Origin: a phage
Direction: 5' to 3' (one strand)
DNA: 44,130 nt
Sequence record: QB031380.1
Shown here one piece after another: positions 6,221-43,403 of the stretch. The first letter of the stretch is position 1; each line of letters begins with the position of its first letter. The position numbers and the translations under genes were made by a program. The notes under the pieces are model-generated. The model did no database searches. It saw only the letters and a program-made list of their open reading frames with translations, and was not told the origin of the DNA.

Positions 6221-6225
6221 TTAAT

Positions 6226-8923: not shown

Positions 8924-8928
8924 ATTGG

Positions 8929-8957: not shown

Positions 8958-9004
8958 GAGGGTGTCCGGTTTGGACGCCCTTTTTAATACCCGGAGACAA
9001 CACG

Positions 9005-9941: not shown

Positions 9942-10146
9942 TCGCAGTATGCGCGTCGTGGACGAAATTGTTAAACGCTACCAAATCAACCCGAGGGAGA
10001 ACAAAGTGCGTCGCGTGTCACGGCCGGAACACCTCCTGGGCATGGACCTTACTGGCTGGCTTGTAATGACTGCCCGCTGCCATCTTGTGTGTGACACGTG
10101 TTCCGCCCGTATTGTTCGTGCAAATTTGATTGAGGAATTGAAATGA
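9922..10146 (+). CDS. hypothetical protein
   Basis: 74 aa ORF coupled to neighbouring genes. Confidence 0.4.
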   Translation: MNILIVDRSMRVVDEIVKRYQINPRENKVRRVSRPEHLLGMDLTGWLVMTARCHLVCDTCSARIVRANLIEELK

Positions 10147-10613: not shown

Positions 10614-10631
10614 GTTGGTTGCACTATAGTA
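10602..10631 (+). promoter_or_regulatory. promoter-like TTGCAA-N18-TATAGT spanning palindrome TGCAACCAA-tagg-TTGGTTGCA
   Basis: Perfect inverted repeat of the 9-mer overlapping the hexamers. Confidence 0.4.
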
Positions 10632-10634
10632 AAC

Positions 10635-11198
10635 GTGTCGGGGCAATACAGCCCCCTCACTAAAAAGGGTAATACTGTGAAAGCATACGAATACTGCAAA
10701 AACGCCGCCACCACTATGGAACAGCGCGGGAAAGAAAACGGCTATGGCAACGAGAAAGAAGAACGCATCGCCAAACAGATCGCGGCCGTATTTAACGCGC
10801 TTACCTGTCGCGACCTTACCGAGCAAGACGCCTGGACCTTCCTGATCTGCCTGAAGCTGGTGCGCCAGCACCGTAAGCACCGGGATGATAACATCGTGGA
10901 TCTGGTGGCGTATGCCGCCCTGCTGGGCGAGTCTTACATGACCGTGCATGACGAGATTCAGATCGATACAACGGCAGCACAATTCGACAGCCTCAAAGGT
11001 TGGCCCATCGCCTCCGCCGGGACGTGGCATCCTTCTTCATCTGTGGGCAAGACTGTTAACGCCGCCAATTTTGGAGTTGTAGCCCAGGACGTCCAACCTA
11101 TGGTCGTGCTCACCGGCGAAGACGGATCGAAAATCTGCATGACGCAGGAAGATTTCCGCAACATGGAAAAAACACTGGTGACTGGCGCACTTAAATAG
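10635..11198 (+). CDS. hypothetical protein
   Basis: 187 aa ORF (GTG start in track; an alternative GTG lies at about 10677). Confidence 0.45.
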   Translation: MSGQYSPLTKKGNTVKAYEYCKNAATTMEQRGKENGYGNEKEERIAKQIAAVFNALTCRDLTEQDAWTFLICLKLVRQHRKHRDDNIVDLVAYAALLGESYMTVHDEIQIDTTAAQFDSLKGWPIASAGTWHPSSSVGKTVNAANFGVVAQDVQPMVVLTGEDGSKICMTQEDFRNMEKTLVTGALK

Positions 11199-11238
11199 TT
11201 TAATCGCGGGCTTCGGCCCGCATCAATGAGGACTCATA

Positions 11239-11814
11239 ATGTACGGCGAATATGAAATAACCGGTAAACAATTCCACCTGGCGGCGATGATTGCAAGCAT
11301 CGAGTTTGACCAGTGGCGCTTAAAGTCCGACGCGTGCAAGCAAAGCCGACTCGTCGGTGTGCTGGGCGAAATGTTTGCGGGCATGTACCTCGAAGGGCAG
11401 GCAGGCGGTCGAAGTTGTATCCCGCAAGGCTTACTCATGCGTACGGGCCTGTTTAGCGCTAATACAATCGACCGCGGCGATATTATCATGGTTGGCAAGC
11501 GCAAGGTAAAATCTGGCCCAGACTTCCGCGAGCATGTGATCGATGCCGTCTGGACCTATGAGGTTAAAGCCACCAGCGGCATCCGTCGCGGGCTGGTAGA
11601 GGCGCGTTGCGCTCGCGAATATCTATCGCGTAGAGTTTCCGGTGTTATCCTGGTGGGTGTATCGTTAGGGCCGCAAAGCGCGCACGGCGTGATTGAGGAT
11701 ATCGCAGAGCCATACGTGATCGTGAACGATTGGCCATTAGTGGAAGTGGAAGGAAAGGAATACTACGAAAGCCCGCTGGTTCGGCGCAAAATGGATTGGG
11801 AAAACTCAAACTAA
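11239..11814 (+). CDS. hypothetical protein
   Basis: 191 aa ORF with ATG start, ends at the bidirectional terminator. Confidence 0.5.
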   Translation: MYGEYEITGKQFHLAAMIASIEFDQWRLKSDACKQSRLVGVLGEMFAGMYLEGQAGGRSCIPQGLLMRTGLFSANTIDRGDIIMVGKRKVKSGPDFREHVIDAVWTYEVKATSGIRRGLVEARCAREYLSRRVSGVILVGVSLGPQSAHGVIEDIAEPYVIVNDWPLVEVEGKEYYESPLVRRKMDWENSN

Positions 11815-13571: not shown

Positions 13572-13793
13572 ATGAAAACATTAATTGTGATTTGTGCGGT
13601 TCTTCTGTCCGGCTGCGCGGTAGAGCGTAACAACGGCGATTGCATTACGGTAGCTTACGGAAGCTGCATGTTGCGCTACGTTGACGGGCAAAAAGTCCCT
13701 GCGGGGGATGTGGATATGCGATTCACTGGTCTGTCTGCCGATAGTGACGGCAATTTTTCCGGCACTGTTTCAGTTAAATCACGGGAGTGGTAA
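13572..13793 (+). CDS. lipoprotein (signal peptide with lipobox LSGC)
   Basis: MKTLIVICAVLLSGCAV N-terminus; internal ATG of track ORF 13509..13793. Confidence 0.6.
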   Translation: MKTLIVICAVLLSGCAVERNNGDCITVAYGSCMLRYVDGQKVPAGDVDMRFTGLSADSDGNFSGTVSVKSREW

Positions 13794-13795
13794 TT

Positions 13796-14761
13796 ATGGG
13801 CGCTGGAATACTTATCGACTACAACGACGGAAGGCCGGTGATGGAGATAACCGCCGGACTTCGCGCTCCGTCATACTGCACTACGTTTGATCAGCGCTGC
13901 CAGTCCGATAAGACGCTGACCATTAATACTCCGCTAACCCCAGGGTCTGATCTTGTCGTTGCGCTCACGCGTCCGGTAGAAGTGATTGAGGTCTTCGACC
14001 AAACGCTGGTGCTCCCGGACCCATTCTACGTTACGTCTGTACAACGTAACGGGGATAGCGGCATTATTCTACGAGGTGCGGACGCGTATAGCGCATACAG
14101 TGGTCTTCCGCAATGGGCTGGGATAATTATGGAAGTGCTGCCGGTTGGGTCGCGCAATGCTGGCTTACTGGTGGCGAACTCGACGGACTTCACCGCCATA
14201 ACTAACGTATCCAGGCTAATGACATGCCGATATGCGCAGCGCGTTCGCGTCAATGGGAGTATGGCATTGCCAGTCGGCGGTGTTCCGTTCGCGCGCTGGG
14301 ACGACGGCAACGTGTCGGTGGGATTCGATGGTGGTAGTATTATCGTCCGCAACGCGTCCTATGGTGGTATTGACGATGTGGCGGCTTCGGTGGATATGGA
14401 CCTAGTGATATTCAACAACACGCCGCCTTCACCGGGGACAGGCATTACCATGACTAACAACCAGGGACAGGTCACGTTCTCTACCGCTAACAAGCCGTTC
14501 GTCCTCAATTCCGTAATTAATATCGGCACTGGCGGTCAGAATATCGGCAACAGCCTCGTACAGCTTTCATATACTGGCGCGCTCATTGAGAACAACAGCG
14601 GATACAACCATGTGAGAATGAACGGGATACGCATGGCGGGAAACGTGGTTAGCGCGGCACGAAATCGCGTGGTCGGTAACTACTCACGGCAGCAATTCCA
14701 GATGCCTAACCGTAACGTGACCGTACCCACCCCGCTACTAGTCATCCCTAACATGTATTAA
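13796..14761 (+). CDS. hypothetical protein, co-transcribed with the lipoprotein
   Basis: ATG immediately after the lipoprotein stop; about 322 aa; no recognisable motif. Confidence 0.5.
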   Translation: MGAGILIDYNDGRPVMEITAGLRAPSYCTTFDQRCQSDKTLTINTPLTPGSDLVVALTRPVEVIEVFDQTLVLPDPFYVTSVQRNGDSGIILRGADAYSAYSGLPQWAGIIMEVLPVGSRNAGLLVANSTDFTAITNVSRLMTCRYAQRVRVNGSMALPVGGVPFARWDDGNVSVGFDGGSIIVRNASYGGIDDVAASVDMDLVIFNNTPPSPGTGITMTNNQGQVTFSTANKPFVLNSVINIGTGGQNIGNSLVQLSYTGALIENNSGYNHVRMNGIRMAGNVVSAARNRVVGNYSRQQFQMPNRNVTVPTPLLVIPNMY

Positions 14762-28795: not shown

Positions 28796-29548
28796 TTACT
28801 CGTCGTCGCCCATTTTAGCGATGATATCCCCTGCCTGTTTCGTCAAGTCAGTGATACCGAAGCTGTGGCCCATAGTGATTTTCGACTTCACGTCTTCTAC
28901 GACCTGCGTCGGTTTGCTCGGCGCACCACCGGCGGGCGTGCCCGCCAGGACAGATGCAAAATCTGCGTTACTACGGAACTCTTTTTCAAGCTCTTCCATA
29001 GTCAGCGCGGACGGTTTGCCATCCTGCAAGACACGCACTTTCAAGCTGCCGTCTTCGCCGTCTTCCAGCGTGAGGCGGTCCATAACGTGACGTTGCATGA
29101 TGCCGGCATTCTTACCGAACAGCTTCGACGCCAGATCTTTGGCGGCGCTGCCGATGGTCAGGTCGTGGATCTGCTTGCGATAGGCTTCGATTTTCCCCGA
29201 TGTATCCGCTTCATGTTTTGCGAACTTATCTTTCCAGGACTTATCGATCGCTTCGAGGTCGCCATTTTTGCGCGCGGCGGCTTCCTCTTTCTCTTTCGCA
29301 AGTCGCTCAGCTTCGGCGCGGCGTTCGGCTTCTGCTTTCTTCTCGCTCACTAGCTTCGCGTTGTTGTCTTTCAGACCCTTGATCTCCGCCTGTACTTCTT
29401 CGGCGGTCATGAACGTGGATTTATACCCATCGCCATCGGCAACAAATAAAGCCTTCATGCCTTCCGGCAACGCGTCATATTCTGCTTTAGTAAGTTTCAT
29501 GCTATCCCCCTGGGATTGTGGCAAAGCGGGCCACCCGCTTGACTTCAC
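28796..29548 (-). CDS. scaffolding protein
   Basis: Charged, coiled-coil-like sequence directly upstream of the capsid gene; likely start MKLTKAEYD. Confidence 0.55.
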   Translation of the reverse strand: MKSSGWPALPQSQGDSMKLTKAEYDALPEGMKALFVADGDGYKSTFMTAEEVQAEIKGLKDNNAKLVSEKKAEAERRAEAERLAKEKEEAAARKNGDLEAIDKSWKDKFAKHEADTSGKIEAYRKQIHDLTIGSAAKDLASKLFGKNAGIMQRHVMDRLTLEDGEDGSLKVRVLQDGKPSALTMEELEKEFRSNADFASVLAGTPAGGAPSKPTQVVEDVKSKITMGHSFGITDLTKQAGDIIAKMGDDE

Positions 29549-29589
29549 GCCTTAATATTATCAGCGATAAAAATAATCGCAAAATTCGC

Positions 29590-29619
29590 TTGCACTGCGG
29601 GAATTGGTTGCGCTATATT
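29590..29619 (+). promoter_or_regulatory. sigma70-like promoter TTGCAC-N18-TATATT with GGTTGC elements
   Basis: Hexamers read directly; ATTGGTTGCGC in the spacer and GGTTGCAC just after the -10. Confidence 0.45.
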
Positions 29620-29648
29620 GGTTGCACACCAACAACGAGGACACAAAA

Positions 29649-30413
29649 ATGAGACTGACGAAAGATATTAAAAATCAGATTCTGGCTAACATCCTGCGCG
29701 ACCACGAAATCGCTACCGAAGCCAAACAAATCATGATGGACTCACGCGATCTGGCGTACGCAATCACGCTGGACTGTATGCCGGAAGGCATTCGCACGTT
29801 CGCAGCGCTCCGCGAGCGTATCGAGGCAATCAGCGATGACCCGTCGCAGATGTACGGCGTCAGCGTTTACACCAACAAGGCGACGTATAGTTATAACACC
29901 GACCGTCCGAAGGGCATCGGCAGCGTCTATAACGCCACCTTTGAAATCAACGCAGGTGGCAATGTTCGCACCTTGTCATTGAGCGGCGACGGTCGCCAAC
30001 ACCGCATACATCGCGGGTACTGGGAAGAGAAATATATGAATAAGCTATCCCCCGATCTCGGCGATATCGTTCCAGGGTTCGAGTCAGTTATGCTCGCGTC
30101 AGTGTGTGAAGTGGACGAGGACGGGAAAGCGTTGCCGATATATCTTCCACGCGGTCGCGTAGACTACCCGGAAGATCATGATTTCTGTAAGCGCCTGGAC
30201 CGCAACGACAAGGCCCGTCGCGAGTTGCGCGCGAAGTATGATGCGTTCAAACTCACCGTTACCGGTGTGCTGGACCTGCACAACACTGACAAGAAGCTGA
30301 TTAAGGCATGGCCTGAAGTTGAGCAATTCATCCCATACCCGGACAAGCCAAAATCCACGGCGGTGGCGCTGGATGTGAAAACGCTCAACGAGATTTGCGG
30401 CATTCCGCGCTAA
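29649..30413 (+). CDS. hypothetical protein on the opposite strand within the head operon, with own promoter and terminator
   Basis: ATG with GAGGA RBS; about 254 aa; flanked by a promoter and a terminator. Confidence 0.55.
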   Translation: MRLTKDIKNQILANILRDHEIATEAKQIMMDSRDLAYAITLDCMPEGIRTFAALRERIEAISDDPSQMYGVSVYTNKATYSYNTDRPKGIGSVYNATFEINAGGNVRTLSLSGDGRQHRIHRGYWEEKYMNKLSPDLGDIVPGFESVMLASVCEVDEDGKALPIYLPRGRVDYPEDHDFCKRLDRNDKARRELRAKYDAFKLTVTGVLDLHNTDKKLIKAWPEVEQFIPYPDKPKSTAVALDVKTLNEICGIPR

Positions 30414-30414
30414 C

Positions 30415-30445
30415 GAAAAAGGGGCCATTACGGCCCCTTAATTAT
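30415..30445. terminator. bidirectional terminator
   Basis: AAAAA-GGGGCCattacGGCCCC-TTAATTATTT; the Rz1 stop codon lies within the hairpin. Confidence 0.6.
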
Positions 30446-30658
30446 TTGCTGCAACTCCAACACCTGCGCCCTCAGCTTCGCGCCGCATTCCATATTTTTC
30501 ACGTCAATCATCAAATCTTCGTCGGGGTCCGCAGACGGGTTATCGAACTTGCACGGCGGTCGCAGCGCCGACTCCGTTAGCGGCATCAACGGCACGTTGC
30601 TTGATCCGCACGCGCTCAGCATCAAAACTACAATCAGGGCGGTTAGGGCGCGTAACAT
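30428..30658 (-). CDS. outer-membrane spanin lipoprotein (Rz1-like)
   Basis: Signal peptide plus lipobox LSACG, Pro-rich mature part; AAGAGG RBS inside the Rz-like gene; starts in another frame within it. Confidence 0.6.
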   Translation of the reverse strand: MLRALTALIVVLMLSACGSSNVPLMPLTESALRPPCKFDNPSADPDEDLMIDVKNMECGAKLRAQVLELQQIIKGP

Positions 30659-30899
30659 ATTTTACAACCTCTTTCGTGATAGTCCGGTATTCTACGTCGC
30701 GGGCTTGTTCGGCCTGCACGGAGCGCTCAACAACTTTAGTTTGCTGCCGTTGGGCTTTGGCTTGCGCTTCTTGCGCCGCCTCCGCCACTACGCCAGCGCG
30801 ATAGGAGTCACCTAGCCAGAATCCTACCGCCAGACCGATAACCAGTCCAATAGCCGCATACTTAATCACGCCATAACCCCCGGTTTTTAAGCTGTGCAA
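30540..30899 (-). CDS. inner-membrane spanin (Rz-like)
   Basis: N-terminal transmembrane segment, charged coiled-coil periplasmic part; overlaps the Rz1-like ORF; start may be GTG 30869. Confidence 0.5.
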   Translation of the reverse strand: MHSLKTGGYGVIKYAAIGLVIGLAVGFWLGDSYRAGVVAEAAQEAQAKAQRQQTKVVERSVQAEQARDVEYRTITKEVVKYVTRPNRPDCSFDAERVRIKQRAVDAANGVGAATAVQVR

Positions 30900-31965
30900 T
30901 AGTCATCAGTTCGCCAGAATCGGTGAACATCTTCGGCACTTTCACGCCGCGCATAATCTGGTCGGCGCGTTGCACTCCATATAATTCTTCCAGGATATGG
31001 CGCGGCTGGCGCTGCACCCACGAGAAGAAATCAGTCTGCGCGTCAACCTGCTCACTCAGCAATCTGCCCGCGTCAGACTTCAGTGCCGGACGCTTACCAC
31101 TGGGCCAATCTTCCATGCCTTTAACCTTCCACGTCTCCGTAGACCGGCAACAATAATGCAACTTGCCCGGACCAGCGCCATATTGTGACCCAGCCACCAT
31201 TTTCCCGCCGCGCTTTCCTTTGGTGTCGGGAGTAACATCAACCGGATAAAACAGGCGATCGCGTAGCTGGCACATGGGAGAAGTATGCGTGTCCAATGTA
31301 GATAACCATTGGCGACCTTCGAGAATATCGTCATTTGCTTTTACCATTAGTTCGCGGGCGGTAGCCGCATAGTGGTTGACTGCGGACTTAACAACGCTCG
31401 AGATAGCTTGCGCACTACGACCACCTAGCGCGCGCCTCACGTCCGCGATAATTTCCATCGTTGGCTTGCCCTGGATGAATCCCGCTCGCACCTGATTACC
31501 GATCTGCGTCCTGGTCCACTCAGAAAGTGAGTCAGGCCATTGCATCATCGTATTACCTTGGAACGGGTTTTTCATAGCCGTCGCTGCGATCTGCGCACCG
31601 GTCACTACGCCAACCACCTCAACCGCAGGTACGGCGACCACCGGCTGGATCGCTGCCGTTAATGTGTCGGCGAGATAATCGGCCTCGGTGTCGGCAAACT
31701 CCTGAAGGCTTTCAGCCAACGCCTTAAACTCGGTGCGCAATTCCGTCTTAACGGTCTTGTCGACTTGCGTTAGCAGGGTGGAAAGTGCCTTGTTATTCAT
31801 TGACGATTTACCATCAAGCAACTCAGTCAGCTTTCCCAGTAATGTAGGCCGGAACTTCTCCCACATGGACAGCACCCTTCGCGCCTGGTCATTACTCAGG
31901 CGCTGGGTGAAGATGTGTCGGCGAATCATTCGATCCGCCATATATTGATTAATTGTCTTCGCCAT
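30862..31965 (-). CDS. minor head / head morphogenesis protein (Mu F-like)
   Basis: WLSTLDTHTSPMCQLRDRLFY matches the conserved LD..TS..C motif; downstream of portal. Confidence 0.75.
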   Translation of the reverse strand: MAKTINQYMADRMIRRHIFTQRLSNDQARRVLSMWEKFRPTLLGKLTELLDGKSSMNNKALSTLLTQVDKTVKTELRTEFKALAESLQEFADTEADYLADTLTAAIQPVVAVPAVEVVGVVTGAQIAATAMKNPFQGNTMMQWPDSLSEWTRTQIGNQVRAGFIQGKPTMEIIADVRRALGGRSAQAISSVVKSAVNHYAATARELMVKANDDILEGRQWLSTLDTHTSPMCQLRDRLFYPVDVTPDTKGKRGGKMVAGSQYGAGPGKLHYCCRSTETWKVKGMEDWPSGKRPALKSDAGRLLSEQVDAQTDFFSWVQRQPRHILEELYGVQRADQIMRGVKVPKMFTDSGELMTIAQLKNRGLWRD

Positions 31966-35534: not shown

Positions 35535-35747
35535 TTAAACGGCGCGACCGTAGTATCGGGTTAACATGCTTTCTACTTCGCGTATGGCGCCTTCTGTGTA
35601 GCGTATTTGAGATAGTATCTCGATCCGCTCACTGATAGACATGCCTATTGCCGCTGCCGTTCGTTCGAATCGGCGCAAGCCTTCGAGTTGTTTGCGTAGC
35701 TCTTTCAGGCGGGTGGCCTGCGTGCTCATGAATACTTGTCTGATCAT
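35535..35747 (-). CDS. hypothetical protein
   Basis: 70 aa ORF between the phosphoesterase and small terminase genes. Confidence 0.4.
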   Translation of the reverse strand: MIRQVFMSTQATRLKELRKQLEGLRRFERTAAAIGMSISERIEILSQIRYTEGAIREVESMLTRYYGRAV

Positions 35748-36886
35748 TTCAACATTTCCGGGCTAATGGTTAAGCGCGCTACTTCGCCGTAGTTGGCGCT
35801 GTAGGTAATGACGTTGGCACTGCGACCGCTCATCCAGCCGCCGCGGCTGGCGTAGGCGTCTTTCGCTGCGAGCGTCCGGTGCTGTTCAACAATCATGTTG
35901 CGAGACTCGACAATCTTCTGGTGGTGCAAATGACCTACGTGCGCGTAGCTGTATTCGCTCGACCCGAACGCCTGTCTGAATTTAGCGATCATAACCTGCT
36001 CGATAGCATCGAATCGCGCTTTGTGCCCGTGGTGGAAAAACAGCGTGGTCTTACCGTGCTGCACCATTTTGTAGACGTCCGGGGACGTATCCACATCGAC
36101 GCGCGGCTCGTTCTCGTACAGCGTGTTGAACATCTCAGCAAGCCAAATCATGCCCGACTCGTCATGATTACCCTGGACGATTAGCAGTTTGACTTTATGG
36201 TGTTTTTGCAGCGCCAGGTCTACGACGTTGCGCACCATGCGTATCATATAGCGGACCAACTTCTGGTATCGAGTGTCGGCATCCAGTACGTGACCGCTGG
36301 CTGGTGTGACGGCATCAAGGCTATCAAAGTGCGCCATATCGCCGAGGATATTGATAACGGCAGTGCCTGCGTCCGGTGCGCGTGCGAAGGCTTCGACAAA
36401 CCAGCGGTAGAACAGGTCTTCGGCGATCGCCATATCCCAGTCTTCGCCAGTCTCCTCACCCCATGCCAGCATACCCAAGTGGAAGTCGGACACCGTGTAC
36501 AGGTTGAGCAAGTCGAGCGCCTGGATCGGGACTGGCGGGGCGTTTACTGGCGCTGCCGGTGTAATTTCGCTGTTCATACCCTCGACAACAGCGCGCATTG
36601 CTTCGAGTTGGCGCTCCTTGTCCTGCTCAGTGATGACCCACGACATGACCTCCTCGCCATTGCCGCGCACCAGGGCAGACACGCGCTTAACCCCAAACCC
36701 ATCTGCAACGCGCTTACGGATCACTGCATCATTGCCGTGACCAATCCCCTTTTTCGACAGGCGGGCTTTGCGCATATAGACATTGCGCAGGGCAATCCCG
36801 TATTTCTTCGCAATCTCTTTAACCGTAGTCCCTGCCTGAATTTCTGCGATCAATTGCTCATCGGTGATTTTAGTTTGCGGGTGCAT
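35744..36886 (-). CDS. calcineurin-like metallophosphoesterase with N-terminal HTH-like domain
   Basis: GDMAHFD, GNHDE and HHGH motifs; N-terminal TVKEIAKKYGIALRNVYMRKARL. Confidence 0.55.
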   Translation of the reverse strand: MHPQTKITDEQLIAEIQAGTTVKEIAKKYGIALRNVYMRKARLSKKGIGHGNDAVIRKRVADGFGVKRVSALVRGNGEEVMSWVITEQDKERQLEAMRAVVEGMNSEITPAAPVNAPPVPIQALDLLNLYTVSDFHLGMLAWGEETGEDWDMAIAEDLFYRWFVEAFARAPDAGTAVINILGDMAHFDSLDAVTPASGHVLDADTRYQKLVRYMIRMVRNVVDLALQKHHKVKLLIVQGNHDESGMIWLAEMFNTLYENEPRVDVDTSPDVYKMVQHGKTTLFFHHGHKARFDAIEQVMIAKFRQAFGSSEYSYAHVGHLHHQKIVESRNMIVEQHRTLAAKDAYASRGGWMSGRSANVITYSANYGEVARLTISPEMLK

Positions 36887-36947
36887 ATTTAATTAATTCC
36901 TGATTAGTGGACCGTGGACAATATACCACGGTCCATATGGTGGCGGG

Positions 36948-37028
36948 CTATATCAATTCGCAAATAACCATGCCGATGAAAGCCGCGGTGGTCCAGATTG
37001 CTAATACCCAAATATCGTTACGTGTCAT
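36948..37028 (-). CDS. putative 26 aa hydrophobic peptide
   Basis: ATG preceded by AAGAGGAG RBS; peptide MTRNDIWVLAIWTTAAFIGMVICELI. Confidence 0.25.
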   Translation of the reverse strand: MTRNDIWVLAIWTTAAFIGMVICELI

Positions 37029-37091
37029 CTTGATTACTCCTCTTATTGGTTGGTTGCAGTATGGCCCCTATGTTGGTTGCAAGTCAAGCAA

Positions 37092-37125
37092 TAAAAAGCC
37101 CGGTATTATCCGGGCTTGTTGGTTT
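37092..37125. terminator. bidirectional terminator
   Basis: AAAAA-GCCCGG-tattat-CCGGGC-TTGTTGGTTT. Confidence 0.55.
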
Positions 37126-37525
37126 ACGCGGCTGCCGTTACTGTGAAGCCTGCGTCAGCCTGCACCCTACTGCCGTCGGACGCCACCCAAACGATGCGGA
37201 CGTTACCCGCCGCTTTCGCTGTGATTTCGCCGGTAGTCGGATTGATTGAGGCGCGGTTAGGGTTAGCCGACACCCACGATCCGGCCTTGTTGGTAGCGTC
37301 GGATGGCAGGATGGCAACCGTCGCGGTGGCTGTCTCTCCGACGGCGGCGGTAACTGGATCGATGGTAACGGTCGCACTTGTCACCGGCTTACCTTCAGGC
37401 ACGGCCTTGTCGAAGACGCCTGAGATATTCATATCGCCAGCCAGGATGCGGCGCGCTTCTGGGTTCTGCACTGCGGGCAGTGTCTTGATAATGCGTTCTT
37501 TACGTCGCAAGATCGAATCTAACAT
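37124..37525 (-). CDS. Ig-like (Big_2-type) domain protein
   Basis: 133 aa; Thr/Ala/Val-rich beta-strand pattern typical of bacterial Ig-like domains. Confidence 0.5.
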   Translation of the reverse strand: MLDSILRRKERIIKTLPAVQNPEARRILAGDMNISGVFDKAVPEGKPVTSATVTIDPVTAAVGETATATVAILPSDATNKAGSWVSANPNRASINPTTGEITAKAAGNVRIVWVASDGSRVQADAGFTVTAAA

Positions 37526-37541
37526 ATTGTGTCACCTCGTA

Positions 37542-38033
37542 TTATGCAGCGTTACGACCGATTCGCTCGGCAACGTCCCACTGCTTACCATCAAACAACG
37601 CCTGTCTGCCGATTGCACGGCGTACCAGACCCTTTAACACTTCACCGCCTTGCTTGCGGAACTGCGGCAGAGTAGCACGGACCTTCGCCCAGTCGCCCAG
37701 TCGCACCGCGTCATCGAAATCATTCGCGACGTCATCCGGTACGATAGGACCAGGACCGGCGTTGATTACCAGGTCCACCAGCGCGTCGAATTGCGCCTGG
37801 TTAATGCTTGGATGTGCGTATTTGTTCACCCAGTCCTCGGCATACGCCACGTCGCGCTTTAGCAGTTCCAGCGCTTCCGCGCGGGTAATGCTTCGAGGCG
37901 GATTAGTGCCCGTATGACCATAGCCCCAGGTGTACAGGCCGCGGGCCTGCTCTTTCTTGGTTGCGAAATACGGCACCGGGCTGAAAGCCTCCCATGCTGC
38001 CGTAAATCTTAGACCGTTGTCACTGAATCGCAT
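37542..38033 (-). CDS. endolysin (phage lysozyme, GH24-like)
   Basis: E...Y.W.YGHTG and QAQFDALVDLVINAG pattern typical of phage lysozymes; preceded by two membrane-protein genes. Confidence 0.8.
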   Translation of the reverse strand: MRFSDNGLRFTAAWEAFSPVPYFATKKEQARGLYTWGYGHTGTNPPRSITRAEALELLKRDVAYAEDWVNKYAHPSINQAQFDALVDLVINAGPGPIVPDDVANDFDDAVRLGDWAKVRATLPQFRKQGGEVLKGLVRRAIGRQALFDGKQWDVAERIGRNAA

Positions 38034-38265
38034 GTTTTACCCCATTCAAAACAGCATTACGCAGTGTGCGCAATGCAAACAGCCATATTAACGCGGTCCA
38101 GGTGGTATCAGATACGTCTCCTGTTTGCAACAGTCCGATAATACAGACCATTGCCGTTAACAGATACAGCACCCGGCCGAAAATGCCATCCCGGACGGAC
38201 GGCGCATACACGTTAAACAGGGACGAAGCCCCGATGATAACAAACAACAGGACGGAGATAATCAT
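38020..38265 (-). CDS. holin-like membrane protein
   Basis: 81 aa with two hydrophobic helices, directly upstream of the endolysin. Confidence 0.6.
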   Translation of the reverse strand: MIISVLLFVIIGASSLFNVYAPSVRDGIFGRVLYLLTAMVCIIGLLQTGDVSDTTWTALIWLFALRTLRNAVLNGVKHAIQ

Positions 38266-38552
38266 TTTGCACCCCCCGGAAGTCGGAACGACGCAATAGT
38301 CTCCCTGATCCGGTCGGCGATTGGCATCCAGAAGATCGCAGTTACGAAGCCCAAACCGGCGACAGTGCGCTCACCCGACAAACCAGCCCACTCGGCAATA
38401 GCCGGTGCGCCAAATATGGCACACAGGAAGCCAACTACAACATACAAAACGAAGTTTAGCGGCCCCTTCGTAGCCTCACTATGAATGCGTGCGCCTACGA
38501 AGCCACCCGCCAGACATGCCAGGGCGAATAGCCACTCGTTTAGCTTATCCAT
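38262..38552 (-). CDS. holin/antiholin-like membrane protein
   Basis: 96 aa with several hydrophobic helices, in the lysis cassette. Confidence 0.5.
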   Translation of the reverse strand: MDKLNEWLFALACLAGGFVGARIHSEATKGPLNFVLYVVVGFLCAIFGAPAIAEWAGLSGERTVAGLGFVTAIFWMPIADRIRETIASFRLPGGAK

Positions 38553-38604
38553 AAAAAAGTCCCAGTAAGTTTTAGCTCACTGGGACTATATCACGCTTGC
38601 ATAA

Positions 38605-38931
38605 TTAATCGAAAATGGACCACTTGCCGACGCCTTTCCATTCCCACCCTGATGATCGGACGGCTTCGAATGTTCGACCGCCTATCATATCCCGATACCA
38701 CAGCCACCACATGCGCAACCTGGTTGGGTGCTCCGTGATTCCACGGCGCTTGTATATTTCGAACGTCATGCGGGTAATGCTGGCGGCTTCCACGGCGGGC
38801 CATACGACGAACATCAGGATGCCCAACAGCACCGCGGTAAGCAGGCACAGCCCGCAGATCAAACCAAACCAATAAATCACATCGTGTAACATCGAATTGC
38901 CCCTTCCGGTTTGCCAATATGGCGCGCCCAT
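38605..38931 (-). CDS. putative membrane protein
   Basis: Hydrophobic stretch VIYWFGLICGLCLLTAVLLGILMFVVW; an overlapping alternative frame exists. Confidence 0.35.
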   Translation of the reverse strand: MGAPYWQTGRGNSMLHDVIYWFGLICGLCLLTAVLLGILMFVVWPAVEAASITRMTFEIYKRRGITEHPTRLRMWWLWYRDMIGGRTFEAVRSSGWEWKGVGKWSIFD

Positions 38932-39013
38932 GCACGCGCCACGAAGTAATTGCGAAATACCCGACCGCCTATCTCAAAGCGGTTATGCTGAAGCATATCA
39001 CGGATCGTCGCAC

Positions 39014-39586
39014 TCATTTCAGAATCACCGAGCGCGGGTCGACGGCCTTCATGCTGCCGTCACGTTCGACCCGGATGAATCCAACGCCGTATTCCTGCGC
39101 ATGGCGCTGTGCATTCGTCACGGCATCAAAGCGATTAATAATCTCATGCGTCGCCTGGCGTATCGGGCCCATCACTTTGCTCGCGTCGTAGGTCGCATAG
39201 GCGGGCTGCGACTTGCGGAACTCCACACGCGTCTTCTTCGCCACGTCATGCGGATGGTTGTCACGAAGGTGGTATTTCCGGCCTACTCGTTCGTAGTTGA
39301 CAAGGCCGAAGTAAGTCATACCGGCGACGCCATCCTTGCGGGATTGCATACGCAGACCATGAAGACCGACATATTCTACGATCCACATACTGCCGTCGCG
39401 AATATCACGCAGCACATCGCCGCGCTCGATATCATGCGTGACAATATCGTATTTCTCCGGCAGCTTTGCCTTACTCGCCCACCATACAAGATCGCTTGCG
39501 GCGTGGTGCAAGCGGACGTGTGCCGCAAGGGTCTGTATTGGTCTCAGGATTTTGCCGTCCGATTTACGGCGGAATAGTAATTTCAT
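39014..39586 (-). CDS. hypothetical protein
   Basis: 190 aa with GAGGAG RBS; ATG overlaps the stop of the upstream small ORF. Confidence 0.5.
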   Translation of the reverse strand: MKLLFRRKSDGKILRPIQTLAAHVRLHHAASDLVWWASKAKLPEKYDIVTHDIERGDVLRDIRDGSMWIVEYVGLHGLRMQSRKDGVAGMTYFGLVNYERVGRKYHLRDNHPHDVAKKTRVEFRKSQPAYATYDASKVMGPIRQATHEIINRFDAVTNAQRHAQEYGVGFIRVERDGSMKAVDPRSVILK

Positions 39587-39717
39587 TGTTCTGTCTCCTC
39601 AATTTCATCGATAGTCTTCGTGTCGCCATCGCATACCGTAGCGATGCCGTTTTGTTCGTAGTCAAGTACGCACATATGCAGGTAGATAAACTCCTGCGAG
39701 AATCCGCCTATCATCAT
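39583..39717 (-). CDS. small hypothetical protein (44 aa)
   Basis: ATG overlaps the upstream stop and its TGA overlaps the downstream ATG; peptide MMIGGFSQEF...EETEQ. Confidence 0.3.
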   Translation of the reverse strand: MMIGGFSQEFIYLHMCVLDYEQNGIATVCDGDTKTIDEIEETEQ

Positions 39718-39983
39718 TTGCGCAGTCTCCAGTGTTTGCCTACCCGCTCGACTGCAGGCTTCCGGCGGATGGTAATACGGATTCCAATTGGTTGCAAGGA
39801 CGTTTTTATGGCAAGCCCATGCTCCCTGGCGAACTTGTGCAGATAGCGGGTCTGCGTTAACGGCTTAACATCGTCGCGATAGCTCCAGAACACAGAATCG
39901 CCCTCAACCGCATTCTGCGCCCATATTCGTATGCAATGCAGTGGAATATGCCATGAAAGCTGTTTAGCTCGTCTGCGGTCCAT
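39714..39983 (-). CDS. hypothetical protein
   Basis: 89 aa ORF with AAGGGG RBS. Confidence 0.4.
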   Translation of the reverse strand: MDRRRAKQLSWHIPLHCIRIWAQNAVEGDSVFWSYRDDVKPLTQTRYLHKFAREHGLAIKTSLQPIGIRITIRRKPAVERVGKHWRLRK

Positions 39984-39992
39984 TTTGGCCCC

Positions 39993-40319
39993 TTATTTCG
40001 CAAGCTGGGCGAATAGCTCGCGTTGGGCTGCAATCCGGGCGATGTTTGTCGCTGCCGTCTCACCGACCCCGAAGCGATACGCCAGGCGCTCACGGGAGAA
40101 TGCCAGCGCGTAGTCCTGGATGGCGTTCGCCAGTGGCTGGATCTCATCCATCGTGTCGAAGCGGCGCTCAAGCATCACGGCGATGGCCCGCTGCATTACC
40201 CTCACAACGGCCCACGCTGCCGATAGTCTTTCTACTGCTTCCGCCCCCTCACCGGCGAACTCCGCCGCTTCTTGTGCCTTCGCCATGGCCATTGCGTAAT
40301 TCCAGATTAATTTTTTCAT
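39993..40319 (-). CDS. hypothetical protein
   Basis: 108 aa; first gene downstream of the promoter at 40348-40376. Confidence 0.5.
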   Translation of the reverse strand: MKKLIWNYAMAMAKAQEAAEFAGEGAEAVERLSAAWAVVRVMQRAIAVMLERRFDTMDEIQPLANAIQDYALAFSRERLAYRFGVGETAATNIARIAAQRELFAQLAK

Positions 40320-40347
40320 CGTTCAGTCCTCATGTTGGTGTGCAACC

Positions 40348-40376
40348 AATCTAGCAGGGTGCTGGCTCGAATGCAA
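40348..40376 (-). promoter_or_regulatory. sigma70-like promoter TTGCAT-N17-TAGATT flanked by TTGGTTGCA elements
   Basis: Minus strand reads ATTGGTTGCAT...TAGATTGGTTGCAC. Confidence 0.45.
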
Positions 40377-40530
40377 CCAATATTAATCATGCGCATGAAA
40401 AAGTTGATCGCTATCTGCTGTGACTGCAAACTGCATTTTTCGCACCACGTTCTGCATCTCGCATTGGTTGCCTAGTTCAGTGGCGACCGCAATCCGCAAC
40501 ATGCTGCCGTGTATTTTGCAATCCCGGATT

Positions 40531-40705
40531 TTATGCAGTCTCAGACGAGGGGGGCCATTGACCCCCGTCTAGTCTGAAAGACTGGGAGTTGTCCCGCCTG
40601 TCCCGCTCCTCGCCAGGCCGCGTCATCCGGGGCGGGACAGGGGTGCTGTCCCGCTTTGTCCCGCCCTTGGTCTGTCCCGCTTTTTGTCCCGCTTACTTTA
40701 TGCAG
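40531..40705. repeat. Iteron-rich intergenic element, copy 2
   Basis: Near-identical to 23711-23884; bounded by TTATGCAG at both ends; about 8 GTCCCGC/GCGGGAC heptamers. Confidence 0.8.
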
Positions 40706-40740
40706 TTTTATTGCATAACTATTCACTATATTTTTACTAC

Positions 40741-40790
40741 ACGGCAACCAATGCGACCGACTAAAAATACACAAAACGGCAACCAATGCG
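40741..40790. repeat. Direct repeat ACGGCAACCAATGCG x2 just downstream of the primase/helicase stop
   Basis: Two identical 15-mers about 34 bp apart. Confidence 0.6.
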
Positions 40791-40798
40791 CGCAAAAT

Positions 40799-43063
40799 TT
40801 AATCTTTCAGGTCGTCATCGGTAGCTGAAAGCGTTATGGGGATATCCGATTTGATGACTAAATTCGACGACCCATATATGGCCCCGGTGTGCGGATCTGT
40901 ATAAAAACCAATCACGCCGCGCTCGACCATATCGTCGATTGCCTTCGTCGAAGTACCACCCTTAGCGAGTCCCGCCTGGCGGACAATTGCCGATTTACTG
41001 AATCCAGTATGGTCCGGGTTATCTTCCATCAGTTTTTCCAGGGCCGCATAAAGCACTTTCTCTTTTTCGTTGCGCGGTCCGGCGGCGTTTTCTTCCTTAA
41101 CTGCAGCTTTGCCCGCGGCCTTCGCCTGTTCGATGGCGAACGGTGCCAGGGCGACCGGTACGAGGTACAGAGTCTCGTCGCGTGGCGTGGACGCAATTGG
41201 TTTAACGTCCCAACCGGCAACTACGTCGCCGAAGTCCGGCCCGGTGCTGGTGGACTGGTGCGACGCGAACGCTTCTGACTTGCGGAGATCTACCTTCACC
41301 TTGCACTTGAGCAGGACGAAGCCACGCGGCGCTTGCTTGATGCCATTACGTGATTTTTCGTGATACAGGTTAAGTTGTCCCGGCTGGTTGTCGTCCGGCT
41401 GTTCCAGGAAGAAAGCGGAATCGACAGCACCATGCAGTGCGCCGGACCCACGGGGAGATCTGCTACCGTTTGCACCCTTCGCAGGGTGGTGGATGACGCC
41501 CGCACTGCCGCCTGTGTTTTCCGCGATGGCTTTTAGCGCTTTAACCACTTCGCCCATATCGCTGGCGTTGTTCTCGTCAAACGGTTTAGCATCGGCGGAC
41601 CGCAGCGCAACAGTCTGGTTGAGTGAGTCGAACGCCACCAGGCCAACAGGTTCGCCGTTAGCGGTGCGGTTGATAAAGCTGATAACTTCGCGCAAACCGG
41701 ACTTGCTGGTGATATCCCAGCCGCGGGACTGCAGGTCTATAATGTGCAGCTTGTCCAGGTCGTGCTCGTATTTAATCTGCAATGCTTCTTTGCGCTGGTT
41801 GGAGGCTTCGCCGCCTTCCGCATCAAAATAGAAGCAATGCGACTGGACTACCTTCGCACCACCAAACGGAATACCAGCGGCAACCGCACCCATCTGCCCC
41901 AGCACGTAGAAGGACTTACCTATGTTCGACTCGCCCGCCATATACCAGGTCGATTTGAAGTTAATCAGCCCTTCGATGATCGGGTCGTGCTTGCTGAACA
42001 GTGCGACCGGCTCGTTATCCAGGTCTGCGTCCGTACATTCGCCGTATTCTTCGCCGTCGCCAACCGCATCAACAATATGATCATATAAGGATTCGACTTC
42101 CTCGTCGTCCAGACCTGGCAGGATGGCGGCGATTTGCTTACGTGACATGTTGTGTGGCTCGACGTTCAGGTGGTCCGGGATACCGATAAGACGTAGCGCC
42201 AGGTGCTGGTGTCTATTCAGCTCCGAGCAACACTCGTTGCCTGTGTGCATACACTTGAAACGGATCTCGCCATCCTTAACCATGATAGCCGTCGACCCTT
42301 CGCCGCTGTGCAGATGTTCGTTCGGGCACGGCACTTCATAACCGCGACCGGATGATAACTCCTCGAATCCTGCCTGGAAGCACCAGTCCAGAATGCCGTC
42401 TGCCACTGCGTCGTCGCCCTGGGTAAGCTCGCGGCGTACTTCCTCTTTCTCCACCCCCAGCTTGTCAGCCAGGCGGAGCAGACGCCGCACATTTGCACGT
42501 TTGCCGTAGTGACACTTAATGACAGACTGCTGGTGTGGCAGGTACATAAGACGGTTTGTGTCCTTCGTACAATCGTCGAAGTCCACATCTGACAGGCCCA
42601 GTTGGTGTAATAGCGCATACTGGACACGGCCCAGGTCTTCCGCCGGGACAGGCTTGTCAGTGAGTACCAGGAAGCGAGCGCAACGCGTTCCGCCTTTCAG
42701 TGGGTGGCGGTCGCCGGTGGTTGTGTGGAATACGTGCTCCAGCCCCGCGTCGATGAAAGCCTTACGGCAGCGGCGTAGGGTGCGGGTGTCGGTACGGTCA
42801 ATATCGAAGAACAGGATCGAGCGGTCCACCGCACTGGTCTTGCGGCGTAAGCCGTCACTGGTATACGCCACGATGCCATCGGCCTTACGCTTGCGGCGTG
42901 CATACTCGGCTTTATCTTCCGTCTTGTTGATATGCACCGAGGAGATTTCTTTCGCATCATTGATAAATTCGAAAAATTCATCGGTGGTCATCTGGAAGTT
43001 TTCCGCCCTGGCTTTTTCGCCTTTTTTAGCGGGTCTTGTTACAGCGAATTTAATTAAGCTCAT
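40799..43063 (-). CDS. DNA primase/helicase (primase-like N-terminal region plus RecA-like ATPase)
   Basis: 754 aa; Walker A GESNIGKS; Cys-rich middle segment. Confidence 0.65.
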   Translation of the reverse strand: MSLIKFAVTRPAKKGEKARAENFQMTTDEFFEFINDAKEISSVHINKTEDKAEYARRKRKADGIVAYTSDGLRRKTSAVDRSILFFDIDRTDTRTLRRCRKAFIDAGLEHVFHTTTGDRHPLKGGTRCARFLVLTDKPVPAEDLGRVQYALLHQLGLSDVDFDDCTKDTNRLMYLPHQQSVIKCHYGKRANVRRLLRLADKLGVEKEEVRRELTQGDDAVADGILDWCFQAGFEELSSGRGYEVPCPNEHLHSGEGSTAIMVKDGEIRFKCMHTGNECCSELNRHQHLALRLIGIPDHLNVEPHNMSRKQIAAILPGLDDEEVESLYDHIVDAVGDGEEYGECTDADLDNEPVALFSKHDPIIEGLINFKSTWYMAGESNIGKSFYVLGQMGAVAAGIPFGGAKVVQSHCFYFDAEGGEASNQRKEALQIKYEHDLDKLHIIDLQSRGWDITSKSGLREVISFINRTANGEPVGLVAFDSLNQTVALRSADAKPFDENNASDMGEVVKALKAIAENTGGSAGVIHHPAKGANGSRSPRGSGALHGAVDSAFFLEQPDDNQPGQLNLYHEKSRNGIKQAPRGFVLLKCKVKVDLRKSEAFASHQSTSTGPDFGDVVAGWDVKPIASTPRDETLYLVPVALAPFAIEQAKAAGKAAVKEENAAGPRNEKEKVLYAALEKLMEDNPDHTGFSKSAIVRQAGLAKGGTSTKAIDDMVERGVIGFYTDPHTGAIYGSSNLVIKSDIPITLSATDDDLKD

Positions 43064-43073
43064 TGCCGTGGCC

Positions 43074-43403
43074 TTACTTAGAAGTTTTATTATTGCGTAC
43101 CCATGAGCGCACTGTGCTCTGATTAATTCCTGTCAACTCAGCGATCATTGCCCAGGATTTGCCCTCGGCGCGCAAACGGATAACCTGTTTTTTGTATTCT
43201 TCCATTTCTTCATTGTGCTTTTGCAGCTTGCTGGCTGCCGTACCGTTGAGCAATTCCAGCCTGGCGCGTAATTCTTTTTCTACACTGCGCAGGCGCTCGA
43301 CCTCAAATAGCACCGCACCCACGGCATCGGTATACGCCCAGGACCGGCTTGTCTCACTGCAAACAGTCTTAGTTAACATTTCTATTGCGTCGTTTACATT
43401 CAT
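43074..43403 (-). CDS. HTH DNA-binding regulator
   Basis: 109 aa; C-terminal GKSWAMIAELTGINQSTVRSW helix-turn-helix; GAGGA RBS. Confidence 0.6.
   Translation of the reverse strand: MNVNDAIEMLTKTVCSETSRSWAYTDAVGAVLFEVERLRSVEKELRARLELLNGTAASKLQKHNEEMEEYKKQVIRLRAEGKSWAMIAELTGINQSTVRSWVRNNKTSK

What the first reader, a model, noticed from the sequence alone, without database searches (positions are those of the whole stretch)
29590..30445. Opposite-strand gene with its own promoter and terminator inserted between scaffold and spanin genes
The head, packaging and lysis genes are all on the minus strand, yet a roughly 254 aa plus-strand gene sits between the scaffold and Rz1-like genes with its own promoter (TTGCAC-N18-TATATT), a GAGGA RBS and a hairpin terminator. 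This is the layout of a moron, a cargo gene expressed independently of the late operon. The protein has no motif I recognise, so it could be a host-interaction, defence or anti-defence function.
Basis: partly seen in the sequence, partly recalled or inferred. Interest (0 to 1): 0.62.

Follow-up and report, generated by a model that had tools for sequence, protein, structure and literature searches.

The report
Known Nmad5 gene in Dhillonvirus head module
The opposite-strand gene is real. It is the already described Nmad5 gene of Dhillonvirus coliphages: a dispensable, host-toxic protein of unknown biochemistry, fixed in the genus, in which one point mutation lets the phage escape the bacterial Tmn defence.

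Summary
A 254-aa plus-strand gene (29649-30413) lies between the minus-strand scaffold and Rz1 genes. It has a GAGGA ribosome-binding site, a TTGCAC-N18-TATATT promoter-like site and a GC-rich hairpin.

The protein does carry a known motif. It is a full-length Pfam PF18757 Nmad5 protein (E 8e-59). The window is a whole Dhillonvirus genome. This gene was studied in Dhillonvirus in 2025 (PMC11846954):
- The K216E substitution lets the phage escape Tmn defence, and the residue and its motif are identical here.
- Deleting the gene is viable and does not give escape.
- The gene could not be cloned, apparently because it is toxic.

The moron reading is partly right. The gene is its own transcription unit at a junction that is uninterrupted in a distant relative. 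However, about 150 of 159 Dhillonvirus records carry it. The variable slot is the one just upstream of it.

Its promoter belongs to a phage-wide TTGGTTGC promoter/operator family shared with replication and lysis operons. This suggests early or middle co-regulation.

The "DNA modification enzyme" label is not supported here:
- The only modification gene in the genome is a Dam methylase.
- The confident AlphaFold model matches no solved fold.
- Most sampled homologues sit in early operons without modification genes.

The gene is already known and of modest interest.

The parts
29590..29595 (+). -35-like hexamer TTGCAC of the nmad5 promoter
   Evidence: Read. TTGC is invariant in 7 Dhillonviruses. 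It matches the consensus TTGACA at only 3 of 6 positions, so the scan tool did not call it.
29604..29625 (+). Two tandem TTGGTTGC motif copies (29604-29611 and 29618-29625) flanking the -10 hexamer TATATT (29614-29619). Candidate operator and promoter-proximal element.
   Evidence: The motif occurs 23 times in the window against 1.9 expected. The extended form TAnATTGGTTGCAY occurs 11 times against 2.9 expected. The layout is shown. The sequence is invariant in relatives.
29633..29648 (+). Leader with the GAGGA ribosome-binding site (29637-29641). It lies at and just after the point where relatives carry an inserted extra gene, and that cassette ends with a copy of the same leader.
   Evidence: Alignment A3. 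In SSL-2009a, JLBYU60 and EP23 the inserted gene is followed by a GGGGCGAAAGCCCC hairpin and then a near-identical copy of this leader (GAGGACACAAAAATG, with the two or three bases before it varying).
29649..30413 (+). nmad5 coding sequence: 254 aa plus stop, soluble, pI 6.2, no hydrophobic segment
   Evidence: Pfam PF18757 E 7.9e-59 over the full length. PHROG 1965. 94.5% identical to EP23 gp07. Protein properties. AlphaFold2 model with pLDDT 90 and pTM 0.82.
30285..30317 (+). Codons for the family signature T213-x-x-K216-L217-x-x-x-W221-P222-E223. K216 (30294-30296) is the residue whose K-to-E change gives escape from Tmn in phages SM_A8 and SM_S22.
   Evidence: Conservation across 142 family members: T 94%, L 98%, W 99%, P 99%, E 89%, and K/Q/R at position 216. 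K296 of the over-extended SM_S22 annotation corresponds to K216, and the motif LHNTDKKLIKAWPEVE is identical. The genetics are from PMC11846954.
30419..30439 (.). Bidirectional GC-rich hairpin shared by nmad5 (+) and the converging terminase-to-Rz1 operon (-). It overlaps the Rz1 stop codon.
   Evidence: -19.2 kcal/mol on the plus strand and -21.1 on the minus strand, z about -3. Identical in 7 relatives.

Best explanation
The feature is the Nmad5 gene (Pfam PF18757) of a Dhillonvirus, transcribed as its own short unit against the direction of the surrounding head and packaging genes.

Shown:
- It is a full-length family member and is near-universal in the genus.
- It sits at a junction that is a hotspot for insertions in the wider head-module lineage.
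- Its promoter region carries the same TTGGTTGC / TAnATTGGTTGCAY element found in front of the phage's replication, methylase, primase-helicase and lysis operons.

From the literature:
- The gene is dispensable for plaque formation and could not be cloned, apparently because of toxicity.
- A charge reversal at K216, inside the most conserved motif of the family, lets the phage escape the Tmn defence. Deletion does not.

Inferred:
- Nmad5 is an early or middle non-structural accessory protein. It acts by binding a partner, either a replication or nucleotide-metabolism component or a conserved host factor, and not by catalysing a DNA base modification.
- K216E is an altered-function allele that changes this interaction surface so that Tmn is no longer activated, or is blocked.
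- The name "nucleotide modification associated" reflects one lineage's gene neighbourhood, not a demonstrated activity.
For: Identity:
- Pfam Nmad5 at 199.6 bits over the full length, and PHROG 1965.
- Among predicted viral structures (BFVD), every significant match with a name is an Nmad5-domain protein (TM up to 0.80); the rest are unnamed or uncharacterised phage proteins.

Distribution:
- 150 phage records carry it at 60% identity or more. 159 records carry the Dhillonvirus capsid protein at 80% identity or more.
- The family has 831 clusters at E of 1e-3 or better among 1.84 billion representative proteins.

Promoter and regulon:
- Alignment A3 shows conserved hexamers and motif with a variable spacer.
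- The motif is over-represented in the window and in EP23, 17 copies against 2.0 expected.
- The leader of the hyp48-to-endolysin operon at 40342 (-) is almost identical to the nmad5 leader.

Contexts of homologues, all on the early or DNA-metabolism side:
- Lambdoid leftward early (pL) operons, next to the repressor or N and upstream of Kil or cIII.
- DUF2800 / Enc34 SSB / PolA replication modules.
- A nucleotide-metabolism cluster.
- Other early operons.
- Thymidine-hypermodification clusters in 4 of the roughly 17 loci sampled.

Not an evident enzyme:
- Few polar residues are conserved across the family.

No modification pathway in this genome:
- Only a Dam-type methylase is present.

Genetics: PMC11846954. 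K216 and its motif are identical here.
Against: - No transcription data exist for this phage. Timing and promoter use are inferred from sequence only, and the -35 is a poor consensus match.
- The binding-not-catalysis claim rests on negative evidence. A new catalytic fold cannot be excluded.
- No partner has been identified.
- The hypermodification-cluster association in Yuavirus-like phages is real and tight: the gene sits between aGPT-Pplase1 or its helical domain and the hydroxymethylase. The family may therefore have a nucleotide-related role that persists in a cryptic form here.
- Toxicity was inferred in the paper from failed cloning, not characterised.
Confidence: 0.6

Rival explanations
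1. Nmad5 is, as annotated in the 2025 paper and by NCBI, a DNA or nucleotide modification protein. It modifies Dhillonvirus DNA or assists a modifying enzyme, and Tmn responds to that modification.
For: - The family name and the original gene-neighbourhood association.
- Homologues are embedded in thymidine-hypermodification cassettes of Yuavirus SN1, Bordetella phage FP1 and two metagenomic phages (PMC9476957).
- The authors of PMC11846954 favour this reading.
Against: - The window encodes no hydroxymethylase, kinase, aGPT-Pplase, radical-SAM or PLP partner. Its only modification gene is a Dam methylase.
- Most sampled homologues lie in lambdoid or other early operons with no modification genes.
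- No enzyme-like fold is found.
- Dhillonviruses are comparatively restriction-sensitive (PMC8594841).
- Deleting nmad5 leaves the phage Tmn-sensitive. This is hard to reconcile with Tmn sensing an Nmad5-made modification.
Confidence: 0.12
2. It is a classical moron: recently acquired cargo for defence, anti-defence or host interaction, expressed independently of the phage programme.
For: - Opposite orientation, its own promoter region and a terminator.
- The MuF-scaffold junction is uninterrupted in Klebsiella phage K34PH164.
- The gene is dispensable and linked to Tmn escape.
Against: - It is fixed in about 95% of the genus at a constant position.
- Its promoter is of the phage's own recurring type.
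- The wild-type allele neither protects against Tmn nor is required for Tmn sensitivity.
- It matches no PADLOC defence family.
- The truly variable cargo slot is the one upstream of nmad5.
Confidence: 0.18
3. It is a head-assembly or virion protein, given its position between the head-morphogenesis, spanin and scaffold genes.
For: Position inside the head module only.
Against: - It is on the opposite strand to every structural gene.
- Homologues in other phages are never in structural modules.
- The deletion mutant forms plaques (PMC11846954).
- The distant head-module relative K34PH164 carries no gene at this junction, and Klebsiella phages do not appear among the organisms listed for Nmad5 matches.
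Confidence: 0.03

Closest known systems
Nmad5 of Dhillonvirus phages SM_S22 (CDS6) and SM_A8 (CDS7), PMC11846954
   Same: - Same gene at the same position between Rz1 and the scaffold gene.
- 89% identical to the SM_S22 protein.
- K216 and the surrounding LHNTDKKLIKAWPEVE motif are identical.
- Same promoter region and terminator hairpin.
   Different: - The window phage is not identical to any deposited genome. The best match over 22 kb is 93.7% identity.
- It has no gene in the upstream slot, whereas SM_A8 carries the 109-aa gp08-type gene there.
- The 334-aa SM_S22 annotation is over-extended by 80 codons into the scaffold gene.
Nmad5 in thymidine-hypermodification cassettes of Yuavirus (M6, SN1) and Vojvodinavirus phages
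   Same: Same Pfam family. The C-terminal 85 residues are 37-40% identical, including the TxxKLxxxWPE and LNxxxGLP motifs.
   Different: - Those proteins are about 186 aa and lack the beta-rich insertions of the Dhillonvirus form. Alignment occupancy is low at residues about 78-93 and 119-165.
- They sit between aGPT-Pplase1 and the hydroxymethylase. The window has none of those genes.
Nmad5 homologues in the leftward early (pL) operon of lambdoid phages and prophages (mEp235 gp37, Stx phages, Klebsiella prophages)
   Same: Same family. About 207-210 aa, 32% identical over the C-terminal 100 residues. They lie in an early, accessory and often host-toxic gene neighbourhood, next to Kil and cIII.
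   Different: Those phages are temperate and the gene is part of the N-antiterminated early operon. Here it is a lone unit in a virulent phage's head module.
Morons of lambdoid phages (an extra gene with its own promoter and terminator between conserved neighbours)
   Same: Layout: its own promoter-like region, a terminator, and insertion between genes that are adjacent in a distant relative.
   Different: It is fixed in the genus instead of sporadic. The promoter is of the phage's own recurring type. The phage is virulent, so there is no prophage expression.

Membership tests
Nmad5 (Pfam PF18757) | Full-length match above the curated gathering score | tested here: met
   199.6 bits against a cutoff of 27. 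Residues 1-253 match profile positions 1-206 of 206.
Nmad5 (Pfam PF18757) | Family signature residues at the N-terminus (R2 L3 T4 I7 I11) and C-terminus (T213 L217 W221 P222 E223 L246 N247 G251 P253) | tested here: met
   All are present in the window protein. They are conserved in 64-99% of 142 diverse members.
Nmad5 (Pfam PF18757) | Shared fold with other members | tested here: met
   Foldseek against BFVD. The top hits are Nmad5 proteins, with TM 0.80 to a 64%-identical member and 0.60-0.65 to the C130_2 protein at 25% identity.
Nmad5 (Pfam PF18757) | Neighbourhood of nucleotide or DNA modification genes, the basis of the family's name | tested here: not met
   The neighbours are the scaffold and Rz1 genes. 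The whole genome has only a Dam methylase and no hydroxymethylase, kinase or aGPT-Pplase. This concerns the name, not sequence membership.
DNA base-modifying enzyme | Recognisable catalytic fold or conserved catalytic residues | tested here: not met
DNA base-modifying enzyme | Modified base present in virion DNA and dependent on the gene | not testable with these tools
   Indirect evidence only. Dhillonviruses are more restriction-sensitive than deazaguanine-modified Queuovirinae (PMC8594841).
Moron | Own promoter and terminator flanking a single gene | tested here: inconclusive
   A conserved promoter-like region and a hairpin are present. The promoter is below the consensus threshold. The plus-strand T-run is poor. 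No transcript data exist.
Moron | Inserted between genes that are adjacent in related phages | tested here: met
   MuF and the scaffold gene are adjacent in Klebsiella phage K34PH164, whose capsid protein is 44% identical. Different inserts occupy the junction in Pectobacterium phage Amona.
Moron | Sporadic presence among close relatives | tested here: not met
   Present in about 150 of 159 Dhillonvirus records. The sporadic element is the upstream slot: a 109-aa gene in 61 records, a 170-aa clamp-like gene in 16, and empty here.
Trigger or inhibitor of the Tmn defence system | Loss of the gene changes sensitivity to Tmn (trigger), or its presence protects (inhibitor) | not testable with these tools
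   Published genetics: the deletion stays sensitive, the wild type does not protect, and only K216E escapes (PMC11846954). By those data it is neither a simple trigger nor a natural inhibitor.
Virion structural or assembly protein | Co-oriented with the late structural operon and required for particle formation | tested here: not met
   Opposite strand. Homologues are in early operons. The deletion is viable.

The most novel reading that the evidence does not exclude
Nmad5 is misnamed. It is not a nucleotide-modifying enzyme but a widespread phage early protein with a fold of its own. It works by binding a conserved host or replisome component. Its invariant TxxKLxxxWPE surface is the interface that determines whether the membrane NTPase Tmn is activated. 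This would be analogous to RIIB in T2, so a single charge reversal turns it into an escape or decoy allele. In addition, the nmad5 unit in Dhillonvirus doubles as a landing pad for exchangeable accessory genes, which are driven by a phage-wide TTGGTTGC promoter/operator regulon.
Probability: 0.3. Interest if true: 0.5.

Novelty: already known. Interest (0 to 1): 0.3.

Why it matters
The gene itself is not a discovery. Its family, its position in Dhillonvirus and its genetic link to Tmn are published.

What matters is the correction of two labels:
- It is not an orphan moron.
- The evidence here does not support calling it a DNA modification enzyme in this genus.

Nmad5 is a large family: 831 clusters at 50% identity. 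It is common in Stx and other enterobacterial prophages. It has a confidently predicted fold that matches no solved structure, and no known activity.

A dispensable, toxic early protein whose single-residue change defeats a defence system is useful for phage engineering. It is also a tractable entry point into how Tmn senses siphophages.

The TTGGTTGC promoter family and the exchangeable slot upstream of nmad5 are practical handles for timing and for inserting payloads in Dhillonvirus therapy phages.

Tried and rejected
1. A sequence search of the PDB with the protein gave only chance hits, E 0.7-0.9 to lipoyl domains.
3. NCBIfam and PADLOC gave no hit for the window protein, although NCBI names shorter homologues "Nmad5 family putative nucleotide modification protein".
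4. The search for related loci with the 142-sequence alignment failed because the alignment was too diverse. Neighbourhoods were sampled instead with the look-up of encoding contigs and annotated phage records.
5. An Rfam scan of 29000-31000 found nothing meaningful. The single match was 14 bits against a gathering score of 123.
6. The small inverted repeat TTGGT-N5-ACCAA in the leader does not fold better than shuffled sequence (z +0.5). The hairpin 5' of the scaffold gene is also not significant (z -1.4).
7. A literature search for the TTGGTTGC motif returned only primer matches. Searches for Nmad1 to Nmad4 did not retrieve the original family description.
8. I considered and rejected these readings: a structural role, a simple Tmn trigger, and a known defence or anti-defence family.
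9. The first family searches used an ATG coordinate that was off by one and failed. They were corrected.

Full report
**What is in the sequence**

The window is a complete, circularly permuted Dhillonvirus genome. tblastn with the 57 annotated proteins of Shigella phage EP23 places almost every gene. The genes fall into three blocks:
- Replication and DNA-metabolism genes on the plus strand, 2-11811.
- Tail, head and packaging genes on the minus strand, 12046-35438.
- A further minus-strand block, 35538-43403, with a repair exonuclease, the holins and endolysin, small unknown genes, the primase-helicase and a small HTH protein.

The best database genome (JL1) is 93.7% identical over 22 kb, so the phage is not a deposited isolate.

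Inside the minus-strand head block, one plus-strand gene runs from ATG 29649 to the stop at 30411-30413 (254 aa). Its neighbours are the scaffold gene (28796-29500, -) and Rz1 (30428-30658, -).
- GAGGA at 29637-29641.
- TTGCAC at 29590-29595, an 18-nt spacer, and TATATT at 29614-29619.
- A hairpin at 30419-30439.

**Is it more than chance?**

The gene certainly is. It matches Pfam PF18757 (Nmad5) over its whole length at E 7.9e-59 and PHROG 1965.

The promoter hexamers alone are not. The -35 matches the consensus at only 3 of 6 positions, and the scan tool called nothing in the region. Two other results make the promoter credible.
- Conservation. In an alignment of seven Dhillonviruses, TTGC, TATATT and the following GGTTGCACACCAAC are invariant, while part of the spacer varies freely.
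- Recurrence. The region contains two copies of TTGGTTGC. That octamer occurs 23 times in the window against 1.9 expected, with a maximum of 5 in 100 shuffles. It occurs 17 times in EP23 against 2.0 expected. The longer form TAnATTGGTTGCAY occurs 11 times against 2.9 expected.

The copies are mostly intergenic, often paired, and point toward the downstream genes. They lie before:
- the Lar-like and helicase genes;
- the Dam methylase operon;
- hyp26 and hyp25;
- the HTH and primase-helicase operon;
- the hyp48-to-endolysin operon, whose leader ATTGGTTGCACACCAACatGAGGA is almost the same as the nmad5 leader.

The common layout is a -35 TTGCAY supplied by one motif copy, 17-18 nt, then TAnATT followed by GGTTGCAY.

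I read this as a phage-specific promoter/operator family. The inference that nmad5 is co-regulated with the non-structural genes rests on sequence alone. No transcript data were available.

The hairpin is stable, at -19 to -21 kcal/mol with z about -3. It has a better T-run on the minus strand and contains the Rz1 stop codon. It most likely serves both converging units.

**Is it variable cargo?**

Within the genus it is not. tblastn finds Nmad5 at 60% identity or more in 150 phage records. The Dhillonvirus major capsid protein is found at 80% identity or more in 159 records.

What varies is the slot immediately upstream. In SSL-2009a and JLBYU60 a 109-122-aa gene is inserted exactly between the conserved promoter/leader and the nmad5 ribosome-binding site. 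In EP23 a 170-aa gene is inserted at the same point. Each insert is followed by a GGGGCGAAAGCCCC hairpin and a near-identical copy of the GAGGACACAAAAATG leader.
- The 109-aa type is in 61 records at 90% identity or more.
- The 170-aa type is in 16 records at 80% identity or more. It has a weak match to the central domain of the sliding clamp beta subunit (PF02767, E 7e-4, below the cutoff).
- The window has neither.

At a deeper level the junction does look like an insertion site.
- In Klebsiella phage K34PH164, whose capsid protein is 44% identical, the head-morphogenesis gene is followed directly by the scaffold gene.
- In Pectobacterium phage Amona the same junction holds unrelated small genes and a tRNA.

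The moron layout is therefore a fair description of the origin of this unit, but not of its present status.

**What is known about the gene**

Yamashita et al. 2025 (PMC11846954) studied exactly this gene in Dhillonviruses SM_S22 and SM_A8.
- Escape mutants of the Tmn defence (a transmembrane KAP/YobI-type NTPase) shared one change in nmad5: K216E in SM_A8 and K296E in SM_S22.
- Reverting the change restored sensitivity, and introducing it alone gave escape.
- Deleting nmad5 gave viable phage that was still blocked by Tmn.
- The gene could not be cloned, apparently because of toxicity.

I checked the numbering. The SM_S22 CDS is annotated 80 codons too long and runs into the scaffold gene on the other strand. 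K296 is therefore K216 of the 254-aa protein, and the motif LHNTDKKLIKAWPEVE is identical in the window.

A 2026 preprint (PMC13001434) shows that Tmn is activated by direct recognition of an early phage protein, RIIB of T2, through its helical cytosolic arms. It does not mention Dhillonvirus or Nmad5.

**Is it a DNA modification enzyme?**

The 2025 paper calls it one, following the family name. The evidence here does not support that for this phage.
- Genome content. The only DNA-modifying gene is a Dam-type methylase (PF05869). There is no hydroxymethylase, kinase, aGPT-Pplase, radical-SAM or PLP enzyme.
- Conserved residues. Across the family these are few. There is a short N-terminal motif starting at residue 2. 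The signature is T213-x-x-K/Q/R216-L-x-x-x-W-P-E223. There is also a C-terminal L246-N247-x-x-x-G-L/I-P motif. This pattern looks more like interaction surfaces than an active site, but that is an inference from negative evidence.
- Gene neighbourhoods. I sampled roughly 17 loci.
  - Four sit in thymidine-hypermodification cassettes (SN1, FP1 and two metagenomic phages).
  - The rest sit in lambdoid leftward early (pL) operons next to the repressor or N and before Kil or cIII.
  - Others are in DUF2800 / Enc34-SSB / PolA replication modules, a nucleotide-metabolism cluster, or other early operons.
  - The common denominator is the early, DNA-metabolism side of the phage, not base modification.
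- Restriction sensitivity. The BASEL study reports that Dhillonviruses are comparatively sensitive to type I and type II restriction, unlike the deazaguanine-modified Queuovirinae (PMC8594841).
- Genetics. If Tmn sensed an Nmad5-made modification, the deletion should escape. It does not.

**Most likely mechanism**

Shown: the gene is a near-core Nmad5 family member, expressed from its own unit with a promoter of the phage's recurring type.

From published genetics: it is dispensable, apparently toxic, and carries the Tmn-escape residue in the family's most conserved motif.

Inferred (about 0.3-0.4): Nmad5 is an early or middle accessory protein that binds a replication-associated or host component. 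K216E is an altered-function allele. The charge reversal on the conserved surface either prevents productive engagement of the true trigger with Tmn or turns Nmad5 into a blocker. Simple loss of function is excluded by the deletion phenotype.

**Rivals**

The rivals are a genuine modification role, a classical moron with a defence-related payload, and a structural role. They are scored in the report sections. The structural role is essentially excluded.

**Novelty and interest**

The gene, its family and its link to Tmn are published, so the finding is already known.

The parts I did not find described, in a limited literature search, are:
- the TTGGTTGC promoter/operator family;
- the exchangeable slot upstream of nmad5;
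- the argument that the enzyme label is unsupported.

These are useful but modest. I score interest at 0.3.

Noticed in passing
window, 23 sites, e.g. 5983, 8925/8942, 10603/10615, 13509, 29604/29618, 37050/37073, 40342/40373, 40744/40779, 43593: The octamer TTGGTTGC is about 12-fold over-represented: 23 copies against 1.9 expected in the window, and 17 against 2.0 in EP23. It is mostly intergenic, often in tandem pairs, and oriented toward downstream non-structural operons. The layout -35 TTGCAY, N17-18, TAnATT, GGTTGCAY recurs. It looks like a genus-wide promoter/operator family. I found no description of it.
   Followed up: partly
window 43074-43403 (-): A 109-aa protein with a sigma-70 region 4 / homeodomain-like HTH, annotated as 'transposase' in EP23. 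It is the first gene of the primase-helicase operon and is itself preceded by a TAGATTGGTTGCAT site. It is a candidate binder of the TTGGTTGC motif.
   Followed up: no
L002:1450-1962, L003:1438-1767, L004:1395-1763 (relatives); insertion point about window 29633: Relatives carry an extra gene between the nmad5 promoter and the nmad5 ribosome-binding site. It is either a 109-122-aa unknown protein (61 records) or a 170-aa protein (16 records). Each is followed by a GGGGCGAAAGCCCC hairpin and a near-identical copy of the leader. This is an exchangeable cassette slot. The window has it empty.
   Followed up: yes
L002:1450-1962 (EP23 gp08): RefSeq labels this 170-aa protein 'RusA-like Holliday junction resolvase' and GenBank labels it 'DNA polymerase III beta subunit'. 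Its only Pfam signal is a sub-threshold match to the clamp central domain (E 7e-4). Homologues are widespread in T1-like, Jersey-like and Klebsiella siphophages (249 records). The RusA label looks wrong.
   Followed up: partly
window 13787-14761 (+): A second opposite-strand gene, this one in the tail module just downstream of the gpJ-like gene. It is a 324-aa DUF6453 protein (E 1.6e-118), preceded by a TAAATTGGTTGCAT site at 13505. EP23 proteins find no match to it in the window. It lies in the region the BASEL papers call the receptor-binding-protein locus.
   Followed up: partly
window 7908-8603 (+): A 231-aa ORF between the helicase gene and hyp31. It has no Pfam or PADLOC match and no counterpart among EP23 proteins. 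It is a likely accessory gene in the replication block.
   Followed up: partly
window 3437-5728 (+) compared with EP23 gp36: The DNA polymerase is 763 aa here but 1062 aa in EP23. EP23 residues about 500-735 have no counterpart in the window, which suggests an insertion (an intein or a homing-endonuclease-like element) in the EP23 gene.
   Followed up: no
L012:1783-2787 (SM_S22 CDS0006): The published SM_S22 nmad5 annotation (334 aa) starts 80 codons too early and overlaps the scaffold gene on the other strand. This explains why the same escape residue is numbered K296 in SM_S22 and K216 in SM_A8.
   Followed up: yes
window 30419-30439 and 30428-30430: The Rz1 stop codon and its last three codons (K-G-P) lie inside the terminator hairpin shared with nmad5. 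The hairpin's conservation therefore cannot be separated from coding constraint.
   Followed up: yes
window 29555-29582 (-): By eye, a possible divergent promoter for the scaffold and capsid genes: TTGCGA (29582-29577), 16 nt, TAATAT (29560-29555) on the minus strand. It lies in a segment invariant across relatives. It is below the scan tool's threshold (8 of 12) and was not tested further.
   Followed up: no
L029:4052-5208 (Pectobacterium phage Amona): The same head-morphogenesis / scaffold junction holds five small genes, one of them on the opposite strand, and a tRNA-Met. In Klebsiella phage K34PH164 the junction is empty. The junction is an insertion hotspot across this head-module lineage.
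   Followed up: partly
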